A stretch of DNA of 64,000 nt from Thermodesulfovibrionia bacterium (GTDB lineage Bacteria; Nitrospirota; Thermodesulfovibrionia; UBA6902), in assembly GCA_030646035.1 (NCBI GenBank), contig JAUSMY010000040.1, positions 8,081 to 72,080 of the forward strand, in the 5' to 3' direction. The position numbers and the translations under genes were made by a program. The notes below the pieces were generated by a model, which was not told where the DNA came from, did not search any database, and worked only from the letters and a program-made list of their open reading frames with translations. Shown in pieces: positions 6,426-19,809 of this stretch. Every line of letters starts with the position of its first letter. The stretch's first letter is position 1.

Positions 6426-6852
6426 AGTAGCCGGCAGAGGATTTGGAAGGAACACAAAGCAGAGGAAAGCACTTTTGAGGGGTTTGGTAATATCACTTTT
6501 AACCCACTTAAAGATAGAGACGACCGTTGCCAAGGCAAAAGAGACAAGGAAGATAGCTGAGAAGATAATCACTCTCGGCAAGAAGGGCGACCTGCATGCA
6601 AGAAGGCTTGCGATGTCATCTATTCCTGATGAGAACTCCATCACCAAACTCTTTAATGAAATAGCACCGAAGATAAGCCGCACCAGCGGTTACCTTAGAG
6701 TGCTGCAGACCCGCAACAGGATAGGCGACAATGCTTCAATGGCTGTGCTTGAGTTTGTTGATTATGAGAAGCTCCAGAACAAAGAGGAGATAGAGCAGAA
6801 GGCAAAGAAGAAAGAGGCAAAGGCTGCGAAAGCAGAGACGACAGAAAAGTAA
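6415..6852 (+). CDS. rplQ: 50S ribosomal protein L17
   Basis: 145-aa ORF MRHKVAGRGFGRNTKQRKALLRGLV...; Lys/Ala-rich C-terminal tail; overlaps rpoA end. Confidence 0.93.
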   Translation: MRHKVAGRGFGRNTKQRKALLRGLVISLLTHLKIETTVAKAKETRKIAEKIITLGKKGDLHARRLAMSSIPDENSITKLFNEIAPKISRTSGYLRVLQTRNRIGDNASMAVLEFVDYEKLQNKEEIEQKAKKKEAKAAKAETTEK

Positions 6853-6876
6853 AGTTTAATTAATATAAATCACCCT

Positions 6877-6907
6877 AAGGCCTGTGAGCGATCACAGGCC
6901 TTTTTTT
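6877..6907 (+). terminator. Rho-independent terminator after rplQ
   Basis: aaggcctgtga (6877-6887) pairs with tcacaggcctt (6892-6901) around loop gcga, followed by T7 run; 25 nt after rplQ stop. Confidence 0.8.
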
Positions 6908-6996
6908 GATTTCAACTTTTGACATAAGGGGCGTACTTTAGTTCATCCTACTTGATGGATGGGTTGGGCGTCGGTTACCCGCGGAACATCATTGCT

Positions 6997-7650
6997 TCAT
7001 TGTGCGATCCACTCGTGAGTGCAGCCAGGGTTCTCCTTGATATTGGGGCTGTTGTATAGCCTGGGTTTAATCCCGAATAATAATGGGTTGGTTCCGTAGT
7101 ACCTCATCTGCGCGTAGGCGGTATCCTTACAAAAATTCTTGTTGCGCACGGTATAGGCCGCGATAACCAATCCCGTGCGGTCCTTCCCATGGCTGCAATG
7201 CACCAAGACCGGCCAATTATTTCCTTTCTCTAATGCTTCTATCGCTTGCTTGAGAATATTTTCATCTGGACTGGCCCATGGGTTTAAGTTATGCGGGAAG
7301 TCTTCCGGTTGCATGTAAAGAGGGATTACATTGATATTATGCTTCTTGGCGAGACGAAGTTCTTCTGACTCGTCTGCATCAGACGAGAATTTGTTCAGCT
7401 TGACCACGGTCTTGATGCCTATCTTCTCCAGATAGCACCAATCTGCATCTCCCTTTGGTTGACCGCTTCGGTAGATTGCACCTACACCATCAGTGCCACC
7501 TGGGATTACGATATGGAAGTTATAGACTGGGGCTGGATGCGGATCCTTTATAGCGATAACAGCTGACGGTTGCGTCAATGTCGCGCATGCTGTCAGGATT
7601 AAGCAAACGCCCAACATTGCAAGACGTATAACAGGATATACATTTCGCAT
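6997..7650 (-). CDS. predicted lipoprotein with protein-tyrosine/dual-specificity phosphatase-like domain
   Basis: 217-aa ORF; signal peptide with lipobox LILTAC; HCSHGKDRTG matches the HCX5R(S/T) P-loop of Cys-based phosphatases (codons at 7171-7200); RBS aaggag upstream; sampled lines about 50% GC. Confidence 0.6.
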   Translation of the reverse strand: MRNVYPVIRLAMLGVCLILTACATLTQPSAVIAIKDPHPAPVYNFHIVIPGGTDGVGAIYRSGQPKGDADWCYLEKIGIKTVVKLNKFSSDADESEELRLAKKHNINVIPLYMQPEDFPHNLNPWASPDENILKQAIEALEKGNNWPVLVHCSHGKDRTGLVIAAYTVRNKNFCKDTAYAQMRYYGTNPLLFGIKPRLYNSPNIKENPGCTHEWIAQ

Positions 7651-7763
7651 AACTACTCCTTGCTTTTGTCAGATTTAGGTATCTCTCTCCGCCCAACGCC
7701 GAGCTAACCTGAGCGACGCTGTTTGCCGCGTCTGGTTGAGCGCCGTGTTAGGTGAATGCTGAA

Positions 7764-8444
7764 TCACTTACGTTTCTTATTTACTAGATATGGCAGTGAA
7801 GTCGCGTGTTCAATAATTCCCTCAACCTCATTCGCTTTGCAGCTATGGGCATCCCAATTGCGCCATTTTGACTGCTTAAGCATGACTGTAAGATTCTTCT
7901 TTTCTTTGATATAGCTGAGCAGCTTCGCTACATGTGCCTCCTCTACCACAAGGGAAAAACAATCCGACATGCTAGGTTTGGTTGAGCCGTGCAACCAAGC
8001 TAGGAGTGTCAAATCATAGGTGCCATCCTTAGTCATCTGGTACTCAAATGGGCGTTCAATCGAAGAAGAAAACTGAACCTGCTTAGTGACATTCTCTCCA
8101 CCAAAGACTGTGATAGGAACTGCCAGTGAGTCACGTATTAATTCCCCGCTCTCTCCAAAGGCAAGGTAATAAGCAGGTTCAAGAAGGTAACCCTCGGGGC
8201 TGCCGCTATGCTGGATCAAGAGGGCAACTCTATCAACGGTGAGATGCTTGGAGCCAGCATTCGCAAAATTCACTGCCAAGATGAACGAGACAGGCCCCTC
8301 CAAGTCGTGGCTGATGGCAGTGTGCTCACCAGCGGTGAGATGGAGTTCGCCCATACGAAATTTTGATACGTATAGACTGATAATTGAGCCGAGCAATGCT
8401 ACTATTGAAATAACAATGGGCACTAGATCCTTCATCTCAATCAT
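7764..8444 (-). CDS. membrane-anchored hypothetical protein
   Basis: 226-aa ORF with one N-terminal TM helix (LVPIVISIVALLGSIISLYV) then soluble domain with no motif I recognise; strong RBS ggaggg upstream. Confidence 0.5.
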   Translation of the reverse strand: MIEMKDLVPIVISIVALLGSIISLYVSKFRMGELHLTAGEHTAISHDLEGPVSFILAVNFANAGSKHLTVDRVALLIQHSGSPEGYLLEPAYYLAFGESGELIRDSLAVPITVFGGENVTKQVQFSSSIERPFEYQMTKDGTYDLTLLAWLHGSTKPSMSDCFSLVVEEAHVAKLLSYIKEKKNLTVMLKQSKWRNWDAHSCKANEVEGIIEHATSLPYLVNKKRK

Positions 8445-8612
8445 GGTATGTCCCTCCAGATTCTATTCATTTGACTTGCTTCCCACATAACGTAAAGCTC
8501 AGTGACGAGTACCACTGCAAGATAACAACAAACCTCCAAACCAATTTGCATACCTCATAACAATGCTACCTCAAAAAGTGTCCTGTGGTACTCGTTCATC
8601 TGCAGCGCATGG

Positions 8613-9389
8613 TTATGCCTCCGCTGGATTGACTTCGTCTCTTGTATAACCAAATCTTTTAGCAAAAAGAATGTCAATATAGTCAGTAAGAAGAAAAAAG
8701 AAACCAAATAATTCATGTGAACTATTAATGTCAATGAAAATCATCTTGTCTTTTTCAAGAATACTTGAAGCATGGACAATTCTGTGACGTACCTGCGCTA
8801 GATCATCTAGAAAATGTAATGGGTTTTTGTGTTTTGTGCCCTCAAACTCCAGTGGAAAACTAGAGTAATGATTAACTATATCGTTTGCTCTATACCCAAT
8901 ATTAAAAACTTCACTCATCTTGCAAAATTTACCATCCCATTTTCGTGACATGAGTATATCCCGAGAAATATCAAATTGATTTTCAGTGATACCAACAGCC
9001 TGAAAAGAACGGTCAAAAAGTTGGTATAAATATGTTTCAAAAGAACCATAAAACATTACCAAGGTCTGTCTCGTCAAAACATTAACTCCATCAACTGTGA
9101 AGTTAAGTAATCGTGCAGCAGGCATAACAACATAATTGCCACTATTAAGTTGAATTTTGATAGGTGTCTTTTCTTTGAATGGTAACTTGGGAATAATCGT
9201 TTCTGCATAACGTTTTTTACATTCATCAAGGGAGAATTTAGTAACATAAAGAAATCCAGTAATTTCATTGAGTCGTCTAAAAAACAATCGTCGCTCTAAC
9301 GTACACTTGGTTTTTGGTAAAACAAAAGTGTCACCTGCATAAGGATCTGGTCCCATATTTAATGGATTTTGAGAATCGTCTGATGTCAT
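8613..9389 (-). CDS. hypothetical protein, strongly AT-rich gene; C-terminal R-x4-H motif (possible HEPN-like)
   Basis: 258-aa ORF, no TM or signal peptide; sampled 60-nt lines give about 25-35% GC; motif RHRIVH at residues 201-206. Confidence 0.5.
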   Translation of the reverse strand: MTSDDSQNPLNMGPDPYAGDTFVLPKTKCTLERRLFFRRLNEITGFLYVTKFSLDECKKRYAETIIPKLPFKEKTPIKIQLNSGNYVVMPAARLLNFTVDGVNVLTRQTLVMFYGSFETYLYQLFDRSFQAVGITENQFDISRDILMSRKWDGKFCKMSEVFNIGYRANDIVNHYSSFPLEFEGTKHKNPLHFLDDLAQVRHRIVHASSILEKDKMIFIDINSSHELFGFFFLLTDYIDILFAKRFGYTRDEVNPAEA

Positions 9390-9556
9390 CTAATTACCTG
9401 AGCATATATGTATCGTTAGAGGCATAATAATTAGTATACTGCCAACCGTATTGCTGGAATATGAATATCATAGTTGTATGGATAAGAAAAGGCAAGCACA
9501 AATGATATACGGCATAAAGAAGTAGCGCAGAAGTTATAACTTAGCGGAACGAGGAA

Positions 9557-10537
9557 CTAAATACTATCTCCGTTAACCGCGCCAATCTTCCTGAACTTGT
9601 CGTATCTCTCTTTGATACGCATCTCCGGGGTTTTTCTGGAGAGTTCATCGATGTGGAGCAATAACGCTCTTTTCATGTTCTCTGCAATCTCTTTGTGGTC
9701 TTTGTGTGCGCCGCCTGTTGGTTCGGGTATTATATCGTCGCAGACCCCGAACTTTTTAAGGTCTTCCGCAGTGATCTTAAGCGCTGCGGATGCCCTTTCA
9801 AAATCTTTCGGCCCGGTCTCGTTAGGCGCTTTCTTCCATAAGATAGCTGCGCATCCTTCAGGAGATATGACAGAATAGATCGAATGTTCAAGCATAAGTA
9901 TCCTGTCTGCAACTGAAAGGGCAAGCGCTCCTCCGCTTCCGCCTTCTCCGATCACAACAGAGATGATAGGGTTTTTCAGTTTGAACATCATATAGAGGTT
10001 CTTGGCAATGGCTTCAGCCTGGCCTCTTTCTTCAGCGCCAAGTCCGGGATAGGCTCCGGGCGTATCAATAAAAGTTATGAGCGGTTTATTGAAACGGTCA
10101 GCGAGCCTCATTATCCTCAGGGCCTTTCTGTACCCTTCAGGGTGGGGCTGGCCGAAGTTTCTTTCGATCCTCTCCCTCGTGGTCTTGCCCTTCTGATGTC
10201 CGATGACTACAACAGGGAAGCCCTCAAACCTTGCGATGCCTGCTACTATTGCCGGGTCGTCAGAGAAGTTCCTGTCGCCGTGAAGCTCGACAAAATCTTC
10301 CATCAGGAGCTTTATATAGTCAAGGGTATGGGGCCTGTCAGAATGCCGGGCTATCTGGGTCTTTTGCCACGGCGTAAGTTTTGAAAAGATATTGATCCTC
10401 AGGTCAGAGGCCTTCTTCTCAAGCTTGCGTATCTCAGATGTTATATTGACGTCCTTGCCGTCAGCTATACGCCTCAGCTCTTCGATCTTATTCTCAAGAT
10501 CTACTACAGGTTTTTCAAATTCAAGATAATTATGCAT
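9557..10537 (-). CDS. accA: acetyl-CoA carboxylase carboxyltransferase alpha subunit
   Basis: 326-aa [28 protein letters not shown]...; carboxyltransferase core ([20 protein letters not shown]). Confidence 0.92.
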
Positions 10538-15299: not shown

Positions 15300-16259
15300 T
15301 TATGAAGAGGGCGCTGTTTCTACTTTATCTGTCGGTACGCAGACACGGTTTCTGCCGGACTGTTTTGCGATGTAGAGGGCCTTGTCGGCTCGTTCGAGGA
15401 TATCCTTCCACTGGTTGTGGTTGTCGTTTTCGTTAAATGCCGCAACCCCGCAGCTTATGGTAAGGTAGCCCCTTTCACAGCCTTTATGCTCGATCCTTAA
15501 AGACTCTATGGCTTGCCTCAGTTTTTCAGCAACAAGTATTGCCTGAGACTTCACCTGCTCATGCACAATTACGACTATCTCTTCACCGCCCCATCTGAAT
15601 ATGTCATCTGACATCCTGATGACCTCTTTTAATGTGTCAGCAACTTTCTTAAGGAGAATATCTCCTTCCAAATGGCCGTATGTATCGTTATAGTTCTTGA
15701 AGTAATCTATATCGCACATTATCAGCCCGTAATTCTGAAGGTATCTGCATGCACGGTGATGGGACTTCTTAATCGATTCATAAAAGGCATGGCGATTCCC
15801 GATCTCCATGAGGGCATCTGTTCTGGCTATCTCCTCCAGCCTTTTATTTAAATTGCCAAGTTCATCATTTTTTTGTGTAAGCTCCTTTTCAAGGTTCAGT
15901 ATCCTCTCTCCTGCCCTGACCCTGACCTTAAGCTCTGCCACGTCAAAAGGTTTTGCAACGTAATCATCAGCGCCTGCCTCAAGCCCTTCTACTATGTCCC
16001 CTTTTTTGTCTTTGCCGGTAAGCAGTATAAAATAAATATATCCTGTTTTATTCAAGGCGCGTATGTTTTTGCACAATGTGACCCCGTCCATTTCCGGCAT
16101 CATCCAGTCTGCGATTATGAACTTGATCTCTTCCTGCTGGAATATCTCCCACGCTATCATTCCGTTTTCAGCTGCTATTACTTCGTGGCCCCAGGCCTTG
16201 ACGGTCTTCTCCAGGAGTTTTCTTGATATGAGGTCGTCTTCAACAACAAGTATCTTCAT
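15300..16259 (-). CDS. response regulator with REC and GGDEF domains (signature reads GGEEI)
   Basis: 319-aa ORF; REC domain (MKILVVEDD..., phospho-acceptor region IIADWMMPEMDG); GGDEF-family domain with RWGGEEIVV at 15576-15590. Confidence 0.85.
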   Translation of the reverse strand: MKILVVEDDLISRKLLEKTVKAWGHEVIAAENGMIAWEIFQQEEIKFIIADWMMPEMDGVTLCKNIRALNKTGYIYFILLTGKDKKGDIVEGLEAGADDYVAKPFDVAELKVRVRAGERILNLEKELTQKNDELGNLNKRLEEIARTDALMEIGNRHAFYESIKKSHHRACRYLQNYGLIMCDIDYFKNYNDTYGHLEGDILLKKVADTLKEVIRMSDDIFRWGGEEIVVIVHEQVKSQAILVAEKLRQAIESLRIEHKGCERGYLTISCGVAAFNENDNHNQWKDILERADKALYIAKQSGRNRVCVPTDKVETAPSS

Positions 16260-16275
16260 ATTTGCCTTTTACTGT

Positions 16276-19200
16276 TTAAATGCTCTCTGCGAATTTATTC
16301 AACTCGGATATCTCAGACCTGAGATTGTCAACAAGCTGTGTGAGGCCGGATATATCATTGTTTCGGCCTTTGTGCTCTATTGCCAATGCAAGGGATTGCA
16401 CCCTTGTGGCGCTCAGGTTTCCTGCCGCGCCCTTTATGCTGTGCGCATTCTTCTGCACAGTGTCCGTGTCTCCTGATGCCACGGCGTCCTCGATCGCCTT
16501 GATCTTATCCGGTACATAAGAAAGAAATTCATTCAACAGCTCTTTATAAAAGTCTTTGTCATCATCGAACCTGGCCATCGCGCTCTTTATGTCTACAGGT
16601 GTATCTGATTCAGGTTTGGCTCCGGATTCAGTAATGTCGTCAGTCGTTTTTGTTGCTATCGGTTTTGGGATGACTATTTTGGATCTTACCCACTTGGAGA
16701 TCTTCTCCAGCATCTCCTGAGGCTCAATAGGTTTTGACAGGTAGTCGTCCATCCCGGCTTCGATGCAGCGCTCAAAGTCGCCTTTCAGCGCATGTGCTGT
16801 CATTGCGATTATTGTTGTGTGCATGCCATTGTTCTCTCTTAAGCGGATCTCATTTGTGGCTTTGATGCCGTCCATCTCCGGCATCTGTATATCCATTAAA
16901 ACAATATCGTACTTTTTCTTATCCAGCGCTTCAAGCGCCAGCCTGCCGTTCTCAACAATATCAACCTGATACCCTGCTTTTGTCAGTATTTTCTGAGCCA
17001 CTTTCTGGTTGACCGGATTATCTTCAGCAAGCAGTATATTTACGCTCTGGTACTTTGTGTCCCTCAATGTGTGGCTTGTCACGATCTTATGTCTATGGGT
17101 CGATCTATCCTTTTCGTTTCCGCTGAGCACAGTGACAATTGTTTCTAAAAGCAGAGATTCCTTAACAGGCTTTATGAGATAGCCTGAACAACCTATATTC
17201 CGTATGTCGGCAACATCTCCCCGGCTCCCCAGAGATGTAAGAATAATTATCTCCGTGTCCTTGATCTCAGGCGTGTTCTTAACAATGACAGTGGTATGCT
17301 CACCGTCCATTCCAGGCATCTGCATGTCAAGCAGCATGACCTTGAACGGGTCTTTAGCTGCAGCAGCTTTCTTGAGTTCCCTGATAGCTGCAACTCCGCT
17401 GTCAACTGATACCGGCCTGCAGCCATAGTTCTCCAGTGTCTTCTCAAGTATCAGCCTATTGGTCTTGTTATCGTCGGTTATAAGCACTCTCATGCCTTTT
17501 AATTCCGGCGTTGTCTTATCAACAGGTATCGGCTGAATATCTTTCTGTTTCTTTATCGGCAGATTGAACCAGAACCTGCTCCCTTTGCCCGGTGTGGTAT
17601 CAACGCCTATCTCTCCGTTCATGAGTTCAACTAATTTTTTTGATATAGACAGGCCCAGCCCGGTTCCTCCATAGATGCGTGTTGTGGAGCCGTCTGCCTG
17701 TGAAAACTCATCAAAGATCATATCCAGCTTGTCTTCAGGCAGCCCTATCCCGGTGTCTGAAACAGAGAAGAGGATATTTTCCACATCATCGTCCTCTTCC
17801 AGAAGTTCGGCCCTTATTACCACTTCCCCTTTATGAGTGAACTTGATAGCGTTGTTGCCCAGGTTCAGCAGTATTTGGCGTATCCTGGCAGGGTCGCCTA
17901 TCAGCAGTGAACTCACTTCATGATGGATCATGCATGCGAGTTCGAGATTCTTTTCAGATGCCTGGAAGGCGAGGGTCTCGGCAACCCCTTCTACTGTAAG
18001 CCTCAGGTTGAAATCTATATGCTCTATAGGCATCTTCCCTGACTCGATCTTTGAAAAGTCCAGGATGTCATTTATTATGTTCAGAAGGGAATAAGCGCTC
18101 TTTTTAACAATTGAAAGGAAATCATACTGTTCATCCGTAAGCTCGGTATCCAGCGCCAGCGAGGTCATCCCCACAATAGCGTTCATCGGTGTGCGTATCT
18201 CATGGCTCATGTTTGCAAGGAACTCGGACTTGATCTTGTTTGCTTCTTCAGCCTTGATACGCTCTGATACAAGATCCTTGTGGGTACCCTCAAGGATGAA
18301 CATCATGTTGTTGAAGGTCTCGGTTGTTTCATAAAGCGCATCTGCTGTGGACATCTTGTAAACGTCACACTGCTCACACCTGCCGTATTTCTGTGCGAAT
18401 TGTCCCTGCACTTGTCCCCCGCAGTGTGTGCCTGCAAGCTGCCAGCATCTCACATTATGTTTTCCATAAGCAGGGCAGTCTTCTTTTCCGCACTTTTTAA
18501 ATTCCCAGCAGGTGGGGATGTAGGGATTATGAACAGGTTTGTATTCATGATTAGTGAAACCTTTTTTTGCCTCAACCTCGTTAATGATCTGCGAGAAGGT
18601 TTCAAGTGCATGGTGAAGGTTTTTTCTGTCTGTCTCAAGCTTCTCGCGTGTATCCATAAGCAGGGCTTCCACTGATTTGCGGTCAGTGATATCCTTGGCT
18701 ATTATTATTATGTCGGTGATATCGCCGTGGTCATCTTTCAGCACAGAGCCTGACAGGATGGATGGTATTGAGTCATGGCCCTTTGTCTCGCATGAGGTCT
18801 CATATCCCCTGACAATGCCTGCATCAAGGAGCATGCCGAAGAAATCAGCCTGGTCTGTCTCTCTTCCGGCCTTACCGCACAGCATGCCGAATTCACTGCC
18901 TATCAATTCATCTTTGCTGTAGCCGAGGAGGTTCACCGCTGCATTGTTAACGTTCTTGATCCTGCCTTTAGAATCCAGTATGACCATGATGTCAGCAATA
19001 GACTCCAGGATCTCGTCGAGGTGGCTTTTTGAGACCAAGACTTCAGAAAGCTTCTGGGTCATCTTATTAAATGCGAGGCCGAGTTGGCCGATCTCATCAT
19101 CTGAGGCTACATCAACCTTTTGGCTGAGGTTCCCGTCAGCAACAGATTGGAAAACAGTAACAAGGTTCTTCACCGGCCTGGATAGCGCTTTTTGCAGGAG

Positions 19201-19809
19201 AAAGGCGAGCAGAATACCGGACAATATTCCAATGGCAGCGAAAACCAAACTGAGTGTTTGTGACCGCTTTCCTTTAGATATGATCTCTTCCATGTGCCTG
19301 CTTATCTCGACCCGGACATTGTTTTTCAGTGCCAGCACATTCTCATGGGCTGAATGTTCTGTTTCAAGGAGTACCTTTTCCCATGAGCGCACCCCTTCTC
19401 CGGTACTTCCAGTGGCAAGCTCCTGTGAATAAGCAACCACTGCAGTTCTGTATTTCTTTGATTTTTCAATAAAGGCCTTCAGCATTACTTTGTCATCTTC
19501 ATGGATAAGAGTATCTTTCAGGGATTCTGAATCTGCAGTAAGCTGTTTGATGTTTTTCAGCAAAGGCTTTATATCTGTATGGCCTTCAATTACATATACG
19601 GTGAGCTGCCCCCTTATATCAACAAACCTTGAAAGAAGTTCATCTATATCCCTGAGATTTTTTCTGTGCCCTTCCTCTAAAGAAGCCAGTTCCCTGTTCA
19701 TGTATGAAGTGTGGTAGATGTCAAGCAGGCTGATAACGGCTATGAGGAATACAAGTATTCCAAGGCCGATGTATCGGAGGGCGCGGTTTGATATATGCAA
19801 CTTATTCAT
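16276..19809 (-). CDS. hybrid sensor histidine kinase (TM-HAMP-PAS-Cys-rich insert-HisKA-HATPase-REC-REC-HPt)
   Basis: 1177-aa ORF; H-box [10 protein letters not shown]-box [12 protein letters not shown], two receiver domains ([23 protein letters not shown]), HPt ([12 protein letters not shown]); 7-Cys segment at residues 434-481. Confidence 0.88.

What the first reader, a model, noticed from the sequence alone, without database searches (positions are those of the whole stretch)
6997..7650. Exported lipoprotein carrying a Cys-based phosphatase P-loop
A lipobox (LILTAC) precedes a domain with HCSHGKDRTG, the HCX5R(S/T) signature of tyrosine, dual-specificity and phosphoinositide phosphatases. 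An extracytoplasmic phosphatase of this class is unusual and could act on lipids or on surface phosphoproteins.
Basis: partly seen in the sequence, partly recalled or inferred. Interest (0 to 1): 0.45.

Follow-up and report, generated by a model that had tools for sequence, protein, structure and literature searches.

The report
Lipoprotein cysteine phosphatase on integron cassette
The gene really does encode a membrane-tethered, exported cysteine-dependent phosphatase, but such exported enzymes are common in environmental bacteria; the unreported point is that this one travels between bacterial phyla as an integron gene cassette.

Summary
Window 6997-7650 (minus strand) is a 217-aa ORF with a strong ribosome-binding site, a lipoprotein signal (LILTA|C22) and the P-loop HCSHGKDRTG (Cys152).

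Export is supported by conservation: Cys22 is kept in 78 of 81 homologues, and Cys174 and Cys210 are present together or absent together (78/0/3), which suggests a disulfide.

The claim that this is unusual does not hold. About 3,000 clusters of small, mostly signal-peptide-bearing relatives exist. TpbA, Lmo1800 and Pho16B are published exported or lipobox-bearing precedents.

The addition is that the gene is a 781-bp integron gene cassette (6916-7696). It is the last of three cassettes, with no integrase in the window, inserted between accA and rplQ. The same cassette occurs in arrays in Sulfuricella, Methylococcales and Gallionellaceae genomes.

I infer a self-contained periplasmic phosphomonoesterase. 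Its substrate is untested. Interest is modest.

The parts
6997..7650 (-). ORF of the 217-aa prelipoprotein Cys-phosphatase (stop codon included)
7656..7661 (-). Shine-Dalgarno AAGGAG, 5 nt before the ATG. It is part of a cassette leader conserved across loci.
7585..7650 (-). Signal peptide (residues 1-21) and lipobox L-T-A-C. Cys22 (7585-7587) is the predicted lipidated first residue of the mature protein.
   Evidence: PROSITE PS51257 rule applied; Cys22 kept in 78 of 81 homologues
7300..7308 (-). P115-E116-D117 in the loop between strand 107-110 and helix 130-141. [quoted passage not shown]
   Evidence: E116 74 of 81 (otherwise D), D117 79 of 81; secondary structure
7171..7200 (-). P-loop H151-C152-S-H-G-K156-D157-R158-T159-G160. 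Cys152 is the nucleophile, Arg158 binds phosphate, and Lys156/Asp157 are the ALP-type pair.
   Evidence: signature definition in PMC3091653
7129..7131 (-). Cys174, predicted disulfide partner of Cys210
   Evidence: Co-occurrence: 78 homologues have both, 0 have one, 3 have neither
7021..7023 (-). Cys210 in the C-terminal tail, predicted disulfide partner of Cys174
6916..7696 (-). The phosphatase gene cassette: from the TT of the upstream core site G|TTGGGC to the G of its own R' site
   Evidence: DNA homology to L001, L009, L010 and L013 starts and stops at these points
6910..6969 (-). attC of the phosphatase cassette (R'' GCCCAAC 6963-6969, R' GTTGAAA 6910-6916). It is decayed: the central stem is mutated and the last base of R' is off consensus.
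   Evidence: (best hit in the window, E 0.01, with an HMM built without window sequences)
7691..7753 (-). attC of the preceding cassette (R'' ACCTAAC, R' GTTGGGC). Its R' supplies the start of the phosphatase cassette.
   Evidence: best RYYYAAC...GTTRRRY hairpin in the 64 kb; second-best hit, E 0.077
7764..8444 (-). Cassette 2 ORF: 226 aa, one N-terminal hydrophobic helix, no known family
8485..8618 (-). Probable long attC of cassette 1 (R'' GCATAAC containing the ORF's TAA stop; R' GTTATGT; stem GCTGCAGATGAACGAGTACCAC / GTGGTACTCGTCACTGAGC)
   Evidence: the same stop-inside-R'' arrangement is seen in the cassette array of L047
8613..9389 (-). Cassette 1 ORF: 258 aa, RiboL-PSP-HEPN-like, GC 34%

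Best explanation
The gene encodes a prelipoprotein. I infer from the lipobox that it is exported, lipidated at Cys22 and cleaved. That would leave a ~195-residue enzyme hanging from a membrane into the periplasm on a ~20-residue Thr/Pro/Ser/Ala linker. The residue at +2 is Ala and is never Asp in the family. By the E. coli Lol rule this points to the inner leaflet of the outer membrane, but that rule is extrapolated to this phylum.

The globular part is a minimal dual-specificity/PTP-fold phosphatase; this is shown by profile and structure comparison. From established PTP chemistry I infer the following. Cys152 attacks the phosphate. Arg158 and the P-loop backbone hold it. Thr159 helps hydrolyse the thiophosphate. 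The leaving group is protonated by Asp157 in the P-loop (as in MptpB, Lmo1800 and myotubularins), by Asp117 of the conserved PED loop, or by both. A Cys174-Cys210 disulfide staples the C-terminal tail; this is inferred from perfect co-occurrence.

The gene is a promoterless 781-bp integron cassette. It is the last of a three-cassette array without an integrase, inserted between accA and rplQ; this is shown by homology of the non-coding flanks. The same cassette sits in unrelated hosts next to unrelated cassettes. I therefore infer that it works on its own, as a periplasmic phosphomonoesterase acting on generic small or envelope-associated phosphate esters (organophosphates, inositol- or lipid-type phosphates). 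I do not think it is a partner-specific signalling enzyme.
For: Fold and family:
- Pfam Y_phosphatase2, Y_phosphatase3 and DSPc are all above their cutoffs.
- The PDB profile search gives AtPFA-DSP1 at 1e-12 and TpbA at 2.4e-12.
- The AF2 model has pLDDT 88 and pTM 0.85.

Export:
- The lipobox rule is passed, and Cys22 is kept in 78 of 81 homologues.
- The +2 residue is A, T, G or S and never D.
- Cys174 and Cys210 co-occur 78/0/3.
- More distant relatives also carry lipoboxes or signal anchors.

Catalytic residues are conserved: C152 and R158 81 of 81, D157 80, K156 79, D117 79. The P-loop Asp and Lys roles are shown by mutagenesis in MptpB, Lmo1800 and LM1 (PMC3091653).

Cassette:
- The leader (GTTGGGCGG...AAATCTGACAAA...AAGGAG) and the 3' attC are conserved across phyla.
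- Window versus L001 identity is 80% in the leader, 82% in the ORF and 77% in the 3'UTR plus attC, but 33-42% outside.
- L001 shows seven consecutive ORF-plus-attC units.
- An attC HMM built without window data ranks the two flanking sites first and second in the 64 kb.

Host independence:
- There is no conserved neighbour across 23 loci.
- Hosts span Nitrospirota, Beta-, Gamma- and Deltaproteobacteria and Verrucomicrobiota.

Weak hints of a link to phosphate metabolism: a PhoD gene lies next to the homologue in L007. A homologue sits in the creA position upstream of creBC, with a GDPD gene nearby, in L040.

Against: Cys-based DSPs are usually slow on small esters; TpbA has kcat 0.0076 per s on pNPP (PMC4409338). 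That is a poor fit for nutrient scavenging.

I found no Pho-type regulatory evidence. The phosphate-related neighbours are two cases among about 25 contexts.

Export and lipidation are predicted, not shown, and no SignalP or LipoP run was possible.

The individual attC hits in the window are weak (E 0.01 and 0.077), and their DNA folding z-scores are unimpressive. The cassette call rests on homology to clear arrays elsewhere.
Confidence: 0.55

Rival explanations
1. TpbA-like signalling phosphatase. It removes phosphate from Tyr/Ser/Thr on the periplasmic part of a membrane sensor, such as a YfiN/TpbB-type diguanylate cyclase, and so tunes c-di-GMP or another pathway.
Against: The gene moves as a single-gene cassette between phyla with no conserved partner. 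TpbA's P-loop is HCKHGNNR, which lacks the invariant Lys-Asp pair of this family (PMC4409338). The GGDEF genes in the window are not adjacent to the gene. One of them is a cytoplasmic REC-GGDEF.
Confidence: 0.15
2. Envelope lipid phosphatase. Tethered at the membrane, it dephosphorylates a lipid head group (a phosphoinositide-like lipid, PGP, undecaprenyl-PP or lipid A) and remodels the surface. That could be a transferable adaptive trait.
Confidence: 0.15
3. Phosphoanhydride hydrolase like Siw14/PFA-DSP, acting on inositol pyrophosphates, polyphosphate or pyrophosphate outside the cytoplasm.
For: The best sequence and structure matches are AtPFA-DSP1 and Siw14. Pfam Y_phosphatase2 is the top family.
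Against: The PFA-DSP substrate-binding P-loop residues Lys151, Arg152 and His155 (PMC9038691) are Ser, His and Asp here. PFA-DSPs lack a general acid in the WPD-like loop. This family has a conserved PED there, plus a 5-residue insertion. Bacteria are not known to make inositol pyrophosphates (my own knowledge).
Confidence: 0.07
4. Relic cargo: a decaying cassette whose product is no longer expressed or useful in this host.
For: Its attC is degraded. The central stem is lost and R' is GTTGAAA. No integrase or Pc promoter was found in the window. The only promoter-like site lies upstream of cassette 1, at 9495-9467.
Against: The ORF is intact, with every catalytic and structural residue of the family preserved, and it keeps a consensus Shine-Dalgarno. 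The protein is 77-79% identical to its closest homologues, with no frameshift.
Confidence: 0.05

Closest known systems
TpbA (PA3885) of Pseudomonas aeruginosa, a periplasmic dual-specificity phosphatase
   Different: TpbA has a cleavable signal peptide rather than a demonstrated lipobox. Its P-loop is HCKHGNNR, with no Lys-Asp pair. It has no Cys174/Cys210 pair and a GW motif where this family has NYC. It has a dedicated substrate, TpbB (PMC4409338). It is not cassette-borne as far as I know.
Atypical lipid phosphatases (ALPs): MptpB, Listeria Lmo1800/Lmo1935, Leishmania LM1, metagenomic Pho16B
   Same: The diagnostic P-loop HCXXGKDR[TA]G matches exactly. Pfam Y_phosphatase3 is above its cutoff. 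Lmo1800 has a predicted lipid attachment site and Pho16B a signal peptide (PMC3091653, PMC6409689).
Plant and fungi atypical DSPs (AtPFA-DSP1, yeast Siw14), which are inositol pyrophosphatases
   Different: They are cytoplasmic eukaryotic enzymes. Their P-loop is strongly basic (CKRGKHR) and they have no general acid in the WPD-like loop (PMC9038691). They have no signal peptide or disulfide.
Integron gene cassettes and CALINs (clusters of attC sites lacking an integrase)
   Same: Each unit is one promoterless ORF plus an attC with RYYYAAC...GTTRRRY ends. The cassettes are in the same orientation. The neighbours in other arrays are toxin-antitoxin pairs, acetyltransferases and unknowns. The distribution across phyla is sporadic.
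   Different: The array here has only three units, sits between housekeeping genes (accA and rplQ), and the terminal attC is decayed. It is probably no longer mobile.

Membership tests
PTP superfamily, dual-specificity (DSP) fold | HCX5R(S/T) P-loop at the end of a beta strand, followed by a helix | tested here: met
   HCSHGKDRTG lies after strand 148-151 and before helix 157-170. C152 and R158 are invariant in 81 of 81 homologues.
PTP superfamily, dual-specificity (DSP) fold | Significant profile and structural similarity to solved DSPs | tested here: met
PTP superfamily, dual-specificity (DSP) fold | Cys-dependent phosphatase activity | not testable with these tools
   This needs the purified enzyme with a C152S control.
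Bacterial lipoprotein | Lipobox [LVI][ASTVI][GAS]C after a positively charged n-region and a hydrophobic h-region | tested here: met
   The PS51257 rule is passed. The lipobox is L-T-A-C22, with R2 and R9 in the n-region. It is conserved in 78 of 81 homologues.
Bacterial lipoprotein | Lgt/LspA-dependent lipidation and cleavage | not testable with these tools
   This needs globomycin or palmitate labelling. SignalP and LipoP were not available.
Atypical lipid phosphatases (ALP, MptpB type; PMC3091653) | P-loop signature HCXXGKDR[TA]G with conserved Lys and Asp | tested here: met
   HCSHGKDRTG. K156 is kept in 79 of 81 and D157 in 80 of 81 homologues.
Atypical lipid phosphatases (ALP, MptpB type; PMC3091653) | Overall homology to MptpB, including conserved regions C1-C5 and the extra helical elements | tested here: not met
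Atypical lipid phosphatases (ALP, MptpB type; PMC3091653) | Absence of a WPD-type general-acid loop | tested here: inconclusive
   A conserved P115-E116-D117 sits in the equivalent loop. Whether it reaches the active site could not be measured.
Atypical lipid phosphatases (ALP, MptpB type; PMC3091653) | Phosphoinositide phosphatase activity | not testable with these tools
   This needs an enzyme assay.
PFA-DSP / Siw14 inositol pyrophosphatases | Basic P-loop C-K-R-G-K-H-R that contacts the inositol phosphates | tested here: not met
   Here the P-loop is C-S-H-G-K-D-R. Only the Gly-Lys and the Arg are shared (alignment; PMC9038691).
PFA-DSP / Siw14 inositol pyrophosphatases | WPD-like loop without an acidic general acid | tested here: not met
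   A 5-residue insertion carrying a conserved Glu-Asp is present relative to AtPFA-DSP1.
TpbA-like exported bacterial DSPs | N-terminal export signal plus a small DSP domain with the VHCxHGxxRTGL...Y...A..EM block | tested here: met
TpbA-like exported bacterial DSPs | Dedicated periplasmic phosphoprotein substrate (TpbB/YfiN) | tested here: inconclusive
   No conserved neighbour was found in 23 loci. No YfiN-type gene is adjacent. Absence of linkage does not exclude a substrate encoded elsewhere.
Integron gene cassette | Single ORF followed by an attC with R'' RYYYAAC and R' GTTRRRY, with homology ending at the G|TT crossover points | tested here: met
   Upstream G|TTGGGC at 7691-7697. Downstream GCCCAAC...GTTGAAA at 6910-6969, where R' is one base off consensus. 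Homology to other arrays stops at these points.
Integron gene cassette | attC folds as an imperfect hairpin with extrahelical bases and is recognised by IntI | tested here: inconclusive
   The upstream attC pairs R'' with R' (-10 kcal/mol, z -0.3 to -0.6). The phosphatase's own attC has lost its central stem (z -1 to -1.6). Recombination cannot be tested here.
Integron gene cassette | Integron integrase and attI next to the array (a complete integron) | tested here: not met
   No tyrosine-recombinase motif was found in the six-frame translation of the 64 kb. None appeared among ten IntI-sized ORFs or within 6 kb in 23 related loci. The array is therefore a CALIN-type cluster.

The most novel reading that the evidence does not exclude
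A horizontally circulating integron cassette gives any diderm host a lipid-anchored periplasmic phosphatase with an ALP-type active site. The enzyme edits phosphate groups on envelope lipids or glycans, such as phospholipid head groups, undecaprenyl-linked intermediates or LPS phosphates. This changes surface charge, and with it susceptibility to cationic antimicrobials, metals or phages. It would be a mobile envelope-remodelling trait carried by a Cys-based enzyme rather than the usual PAP2 enzymes.
Probability: 0.1. Interest if true: 0.7.

Novelty: new member of a known kind. Interest (0 to 1): 0.3.

Why it matters
Exported Cys-based phosphatases are abundant in environmental bacteria but almost unstudied. 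TpbA is essentially the only characterised small one.

This clade is compact: 217 aa, a lipobox, a probable disulfide and an ALP-type P-loop on a minimal scaffold. Because it is cassette-borne it must work without host-specific partners. That makes it a convenient model for asking what such enzymes dephosphorylate outside the cytoplasm.

It also adds a defined enzymatic function to the largely unannotated cargo of environmental integrons. It documents a cassette cluster fixed between core genes in a Nitrospirota (Thermodesulfovibrionia) genome.

None of this overturns current understanding.

Tried and rejected
- Conserved gene neighbourhood as a clue to function. All-against-all BLAST of ORFs from 23 loci found nothing shared except the phosphatase.
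- Upstream regions, read by eye for shared regulatory signals. No formal Pho-box search was run. The conserved upstream block turned out to be the cassette leader and core site instead.
- Rfam scan of 6800-9700 at E<=1 gave no hits.
- attC detection by a strict regex plus folding energy. The first threshold found nothing. The relaxed version found the upstream site as the best in the window but missed the decayed one. DNA folding z-scores of the individual sites are weak. RNAalifold on the MAFFT alignment of attCs gave no consensus structure, so I built no covariance model.
- My first attC HMM included the two window sites, which made it circular. I rebuilt it without them. That HMM is specific to one attC sequence type and misses the different attCs of L042 and L047.
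- Integrase search: none in the window or in the loci held.
- Checking the Cys174-Cys210 distance and the position of Asp117 relative to Cys152 in the model. Coordinates are not exposed to the scripting environment.
- Literature searches for cassette-borne phosphatases and for exported lipoprotein DSPs returned nothing specific.
- Asp129 as general acid (it aligns near TpbA Asp105/108). I rejected it because it is not conserved: D58/E8/T6/N4.

Full report
**The observation**

The region 6997-7650 holds one long ORF on the minus strand, 217 aa with an ATG start. AAGGAG lies five bases upstream of the start. The translation begins MRNVYPVIRLAMLGVCLILTAC. This passes the PROSITE lipoprotein rule, with Cys at position 22 and Arg2/Arg9 in the n-region. 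Both motifs are therefore present at the stated coordinates.

**They are not chance matches**

- Pfam gives Y_phosphatase2 (E 4e-14), Y_phosphatase3 (2e-11), DSPc and three newer DSP-PTPase families, all above their curated cutoffs.
- NCBIfam has no specific model.
- An identical protein is in NCBI as 'tyrosine-protein phosphatase' from a Thermodesulfovibrionia MAG. This names the source organism and shows the gene is already annotated at superfamily level.

**Family**

About 90 close homologues (45-79% identity, 195-220 aa) were found. In an alignment of 81 full-length members:

- The lipobox Cys is present in 78, and the residue after it is A, T, G or S, never Asp.
- C152 and R158 are invariant. 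D157 (80), K156 (79), T159 (79), D117 (79) and E116 (74, otherwise Asp) are nearly so.
- Cys174 and Cys210 are both present in 78 sequences and both absent in the remaining three. No sequence has only one.

I read that co-occurrence as a structural disulfide, which fits an extracytoplasmic location. Cys72 of the window protein is not conserved.

**Structure**

AlphaFold2 with the family alignment gave a confident model: pLDDT 88, pTM 0.85.

- It has an N-terminal helix (the signal peptide), then a lower-confidence stretch of about 20 residues, which would act as the tether.
- The compact alpha/beta domain ends strand 148-151 at the P-loop, and helix 157-170 follows.
- Foldseek against the PDB ranks AtPFA-DSP1 and Siw14 first (E 5e-9, TM about 0.75 on the target). 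TpbA comes further down.

The fold is therefore settled as a minimal dual-specificity scaffold. The spread of scores does not single out a substrate class.

**Sub-family assignment**

With a profile of the family, AtPFA-DSP1 (1e-12) and TpbA (2.4e-12) are equally close. I tested three candidate memberships.

- *PFA-DSPs.* They are defined by a very basic P-loop (CKRGKHR) that binds inositol pyrophosphate and by a WPD-like loop without an acid (PMC9038691). Here the P-loop is CSHGKDR. The equivalent loop carries a five-residue insertion with a conserved Pro-Glu-Asp. Both features fail.
- *TpbA.* It shares the export signal and the block around and after the P-loop. Its P-loop is HCKHGNNR, and it has a dedicated substrate (PMC4409338).
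- *MptpB-type atypical lipid phosphatases (ALPs).* The P-loop matches exactly the diagnostic signature HCXXGKDR[TA]G. In those enzymes the Asp was shown by mutagenesis to be catalytic and the Lys to bind phosphoinositides (PMC3091653). That family includes Lmo1800, with a predicted lipid attachment site, and the secreted metagenomic Pho16B, a promiscuous phosphatase and phytase (PMC6409689). However, overall similarity to MptpB is weak, and the larger ALP architecture is absent.

My reading is an ALP-type active site on a PFA-DSP/TpbA-sized scaffold. It has two candidate general acids, Asp157 in the P-loop and Asp117 in the PED loop. Asp129, which aligns near TpbA's Asp105/108, is not conserved and was dropped.

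**How unusual is export?**

A profile search of 1.84 billion cluster representatives found 18 clusters at E<=1e-30, 2,986 at <=1e-10 and 9,481 at <=1e-3.

- Of the 148 best, 146 have a CX5R motif, typically HCxHGxDRTG.
- Of the 141 with a usable N-terminus, 128 have a signal-like N-terminus by a crude hydrophobic-run rule, and 47 have a lipobox.
- 32 have the full ALP motif.

Exported small DSPs are therefore a large, mostly uncharacterised bacterial family.

**Genomic context and the main new finding**

The gene lies between the ribosomal/rpoA-rplQ operon on the plus strand (ending 6852, with a terminator at 6877-6902) and accA-dnaE on the minus strand (from 9557). It shares that gap with two other minus-strand ORFs that have no solid family assignment.

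Across 23 loci carrying homologues, nothing but the phosphatase is conserved.

The non-coding flanks, however, are conserved across phyla.

- About 47 nt upstream of the ATG, the window, Sulfuricella (L001), Sideroxydans (L010), Methylococcales (L009) and other loci share GTTGGGCGG...AAATCTGACAAA...AAGGAG.
- Downstream of the stop they share GCCCAAC...CCCCTTATGTCAAAC-GTTRRRY.
- These are the core site (GTTRRRY) and inverse core site (RYYYAAC) of integron attC sites.
- In L001 seven consecutive same-strand ORFs are each followed by such a site. They encode GST, CMD, the phosphatase, a ParE/antitoxin pair and others.

A five-way DNA alignment shows that homology to the window starts at the G|TT of the upstream site and ends at the G|TT of the downstream site. 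Against L001, identity is 80% in the leader, 82% in the ORF and 77% in the 3'UTR plus attC, but 33-42% outside.

An attC HMM built only from other loci ranks 6913-6969 and 7691-7752, both on the gene's strand, as the two best hits in the 64 kb. The E-values are modest (0.01 and 0.077).

The phosphatase's own attC is decayed. Its central stem is mutated and R' is GTTGAAA.

**The other two cassettes**

The upstream ORF (7764-8444) ends 10 nt before the attC at 7691-7753. Its homologues are again scattered across phyla on short contigs.

The next ORF (8613-9389) is RiboL-PSP-HEPN-like, with GC 34% against 44% for the window. Its stop codon lies inside a GCATAAC motif, and a long imperfect hairpin ending in GTTATGT follows. 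In L047 its homologue sits in a long array of toxin-antitoxin, acetyltransferase and unknown cassettes with obvious attC sites. The stop there is embedded in the same way.

No integrase was found in the window or near the related loci. I therefore call 6910 to about 9540 a three-cassette cluster lacking an integrase. Its left boundary is not defined.

More distant homologues (46-62% identity) are not in cassettes:

- One overlaps creB in a PTP-creB-creC operon with a GDPD gene upstream.
- One lies next to a PhoD gene.
- One is in a defence island.

**Mechanism and role**

- *Shown:* the fold, the catalytic motif, conservation of the export signal and of the cysteine pair, and the cassette structure by homology.
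- *Inferred from established PTP chemistry:* Cys152 thiolate attack, Arg158 stabilisation of the transition state, Thr159-assisted hydrolysis of the thiophosphate, and acid catalysis by Asp157 and/or Asp117.
- *Inferred from the lipobox and the Lol +2 rule:* a periplasm-facing lipoprotein, probably on the outer membrane. That rule comes from E. coli and may not hold in Nitrospirota.
- *Inferred from the biology of cassettes:* a single promoterless gene that functions in Nitrospirota, several proteobacterial classes and Verrucomicrobiota should not depend on a host-specific partner.

This favours a generic phosphate-ester substrate over TpbA-style signalling. Which ester it hydrolyses (small organophosphate, inositol phosphate or lipid head group) cannot be decided here. 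I give the self-contained periplasmic phosphomonoesterase reading 0.55. The rivals are TpbA-like signalling 0.15, envelope lipid phosphatase 0.15, phosphoanhydride hydrolase 0.07 and relic cargo 0.05.

**Verdict**

The claim of rarity is wrong.

The gene is a new member of a known kind: an exported bacterial Cys phosphatase with an ALP-type P-loop. It is already annotated at superfamily level. The cassette context and the probable disulfide are useful additions but are not surprising to a specialist. Interest is 0.3.

Noticed in passing
window 7764-8444 (-), with attC at 7691-7753: A 226-aa ORF with one N-terminal hydrophobic helix and no Pfam or NCBIfam hit. Homologues at 68-83% identity are scattered over Gamma- and Deltaproteobacteria MAGs, mostly on short contigs. 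It appears to be the middle cassette of the array.
   Followed up: partly
window 8613-9389 (-), with probable attC at 8485-8618: A 258-aa RiboL-PSP-HEPN-like ORF (Pfam E 1.6e-4, below cutoff) with GC 34% against 44% for the window. More than 200 homologues occur in Scalindua, Nitrospirae, Desulfobulbaceae and Bacteroidia. Its TAA stop lies inside the R''-like motif GCATAAC, as in the clear cassette array of L047. It could be a toxin or a defence nuclease.
   Followed up: partly
L040 7882-12070: A 62%-identical homologue of the phosphatase overlaps the start of creB (ATGA) in a PTP-creB-creC operon, i.e. where E. coli has creA. CreB and CreC score above the NCBIfam equivalog cutoffs. A cytoplasmic GDPD gene and a small AAA gene lie just upstream.
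   Followed up: partly
L007 6714-8360: A PhoD-type alkaline phosphatase gene lies convergent and immediately downstream of the 46%-identical homologue P0085, in a 6.79-Mb genome.
   Followed up: no
L027 5905-6216 (Pseudomonas fluorescens S613): Only the C-terminal third of a P0085-like phosphatase survives (from VHCSHGKDRTG to the end). It sits next to an IS630-type transposase gene and is a truncated pseudogene. It was the only cultured-isolate genome among the close matches in the genome scan.
   Followed up: partly
window 15300-19809 (-): A hybrid histidine kinase (4HB-HAMP-PAS-HisKA-HATPase-REC-REC-Hpt, 1177 aa) is followed by a REC-GGDEF response regulator. This is a c-di-GMP output two-component pair about 8 kb from the finding. 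No link to the phosphatase was found.
   Followed up: no
window 6877-6902 (+): A strong intrinsic terminator hairpin (11 bp stem followed by a T run) lies after rplQ. It sits 8 nt beyond the end of the phosphatase cassette's attC, so the cassette array abuts the end of the ribosomal operon.
   Followed up: no
L042/L043 1-20700: A 60%-identical homologue lies in a long run of small same-strand ORFs with PIN/MazE pairs, Fic and an acetyltransferase. My attC HMM and regex found no attC there. Either the attC type is different or this is another kind of variable island.
   Followed up: partly
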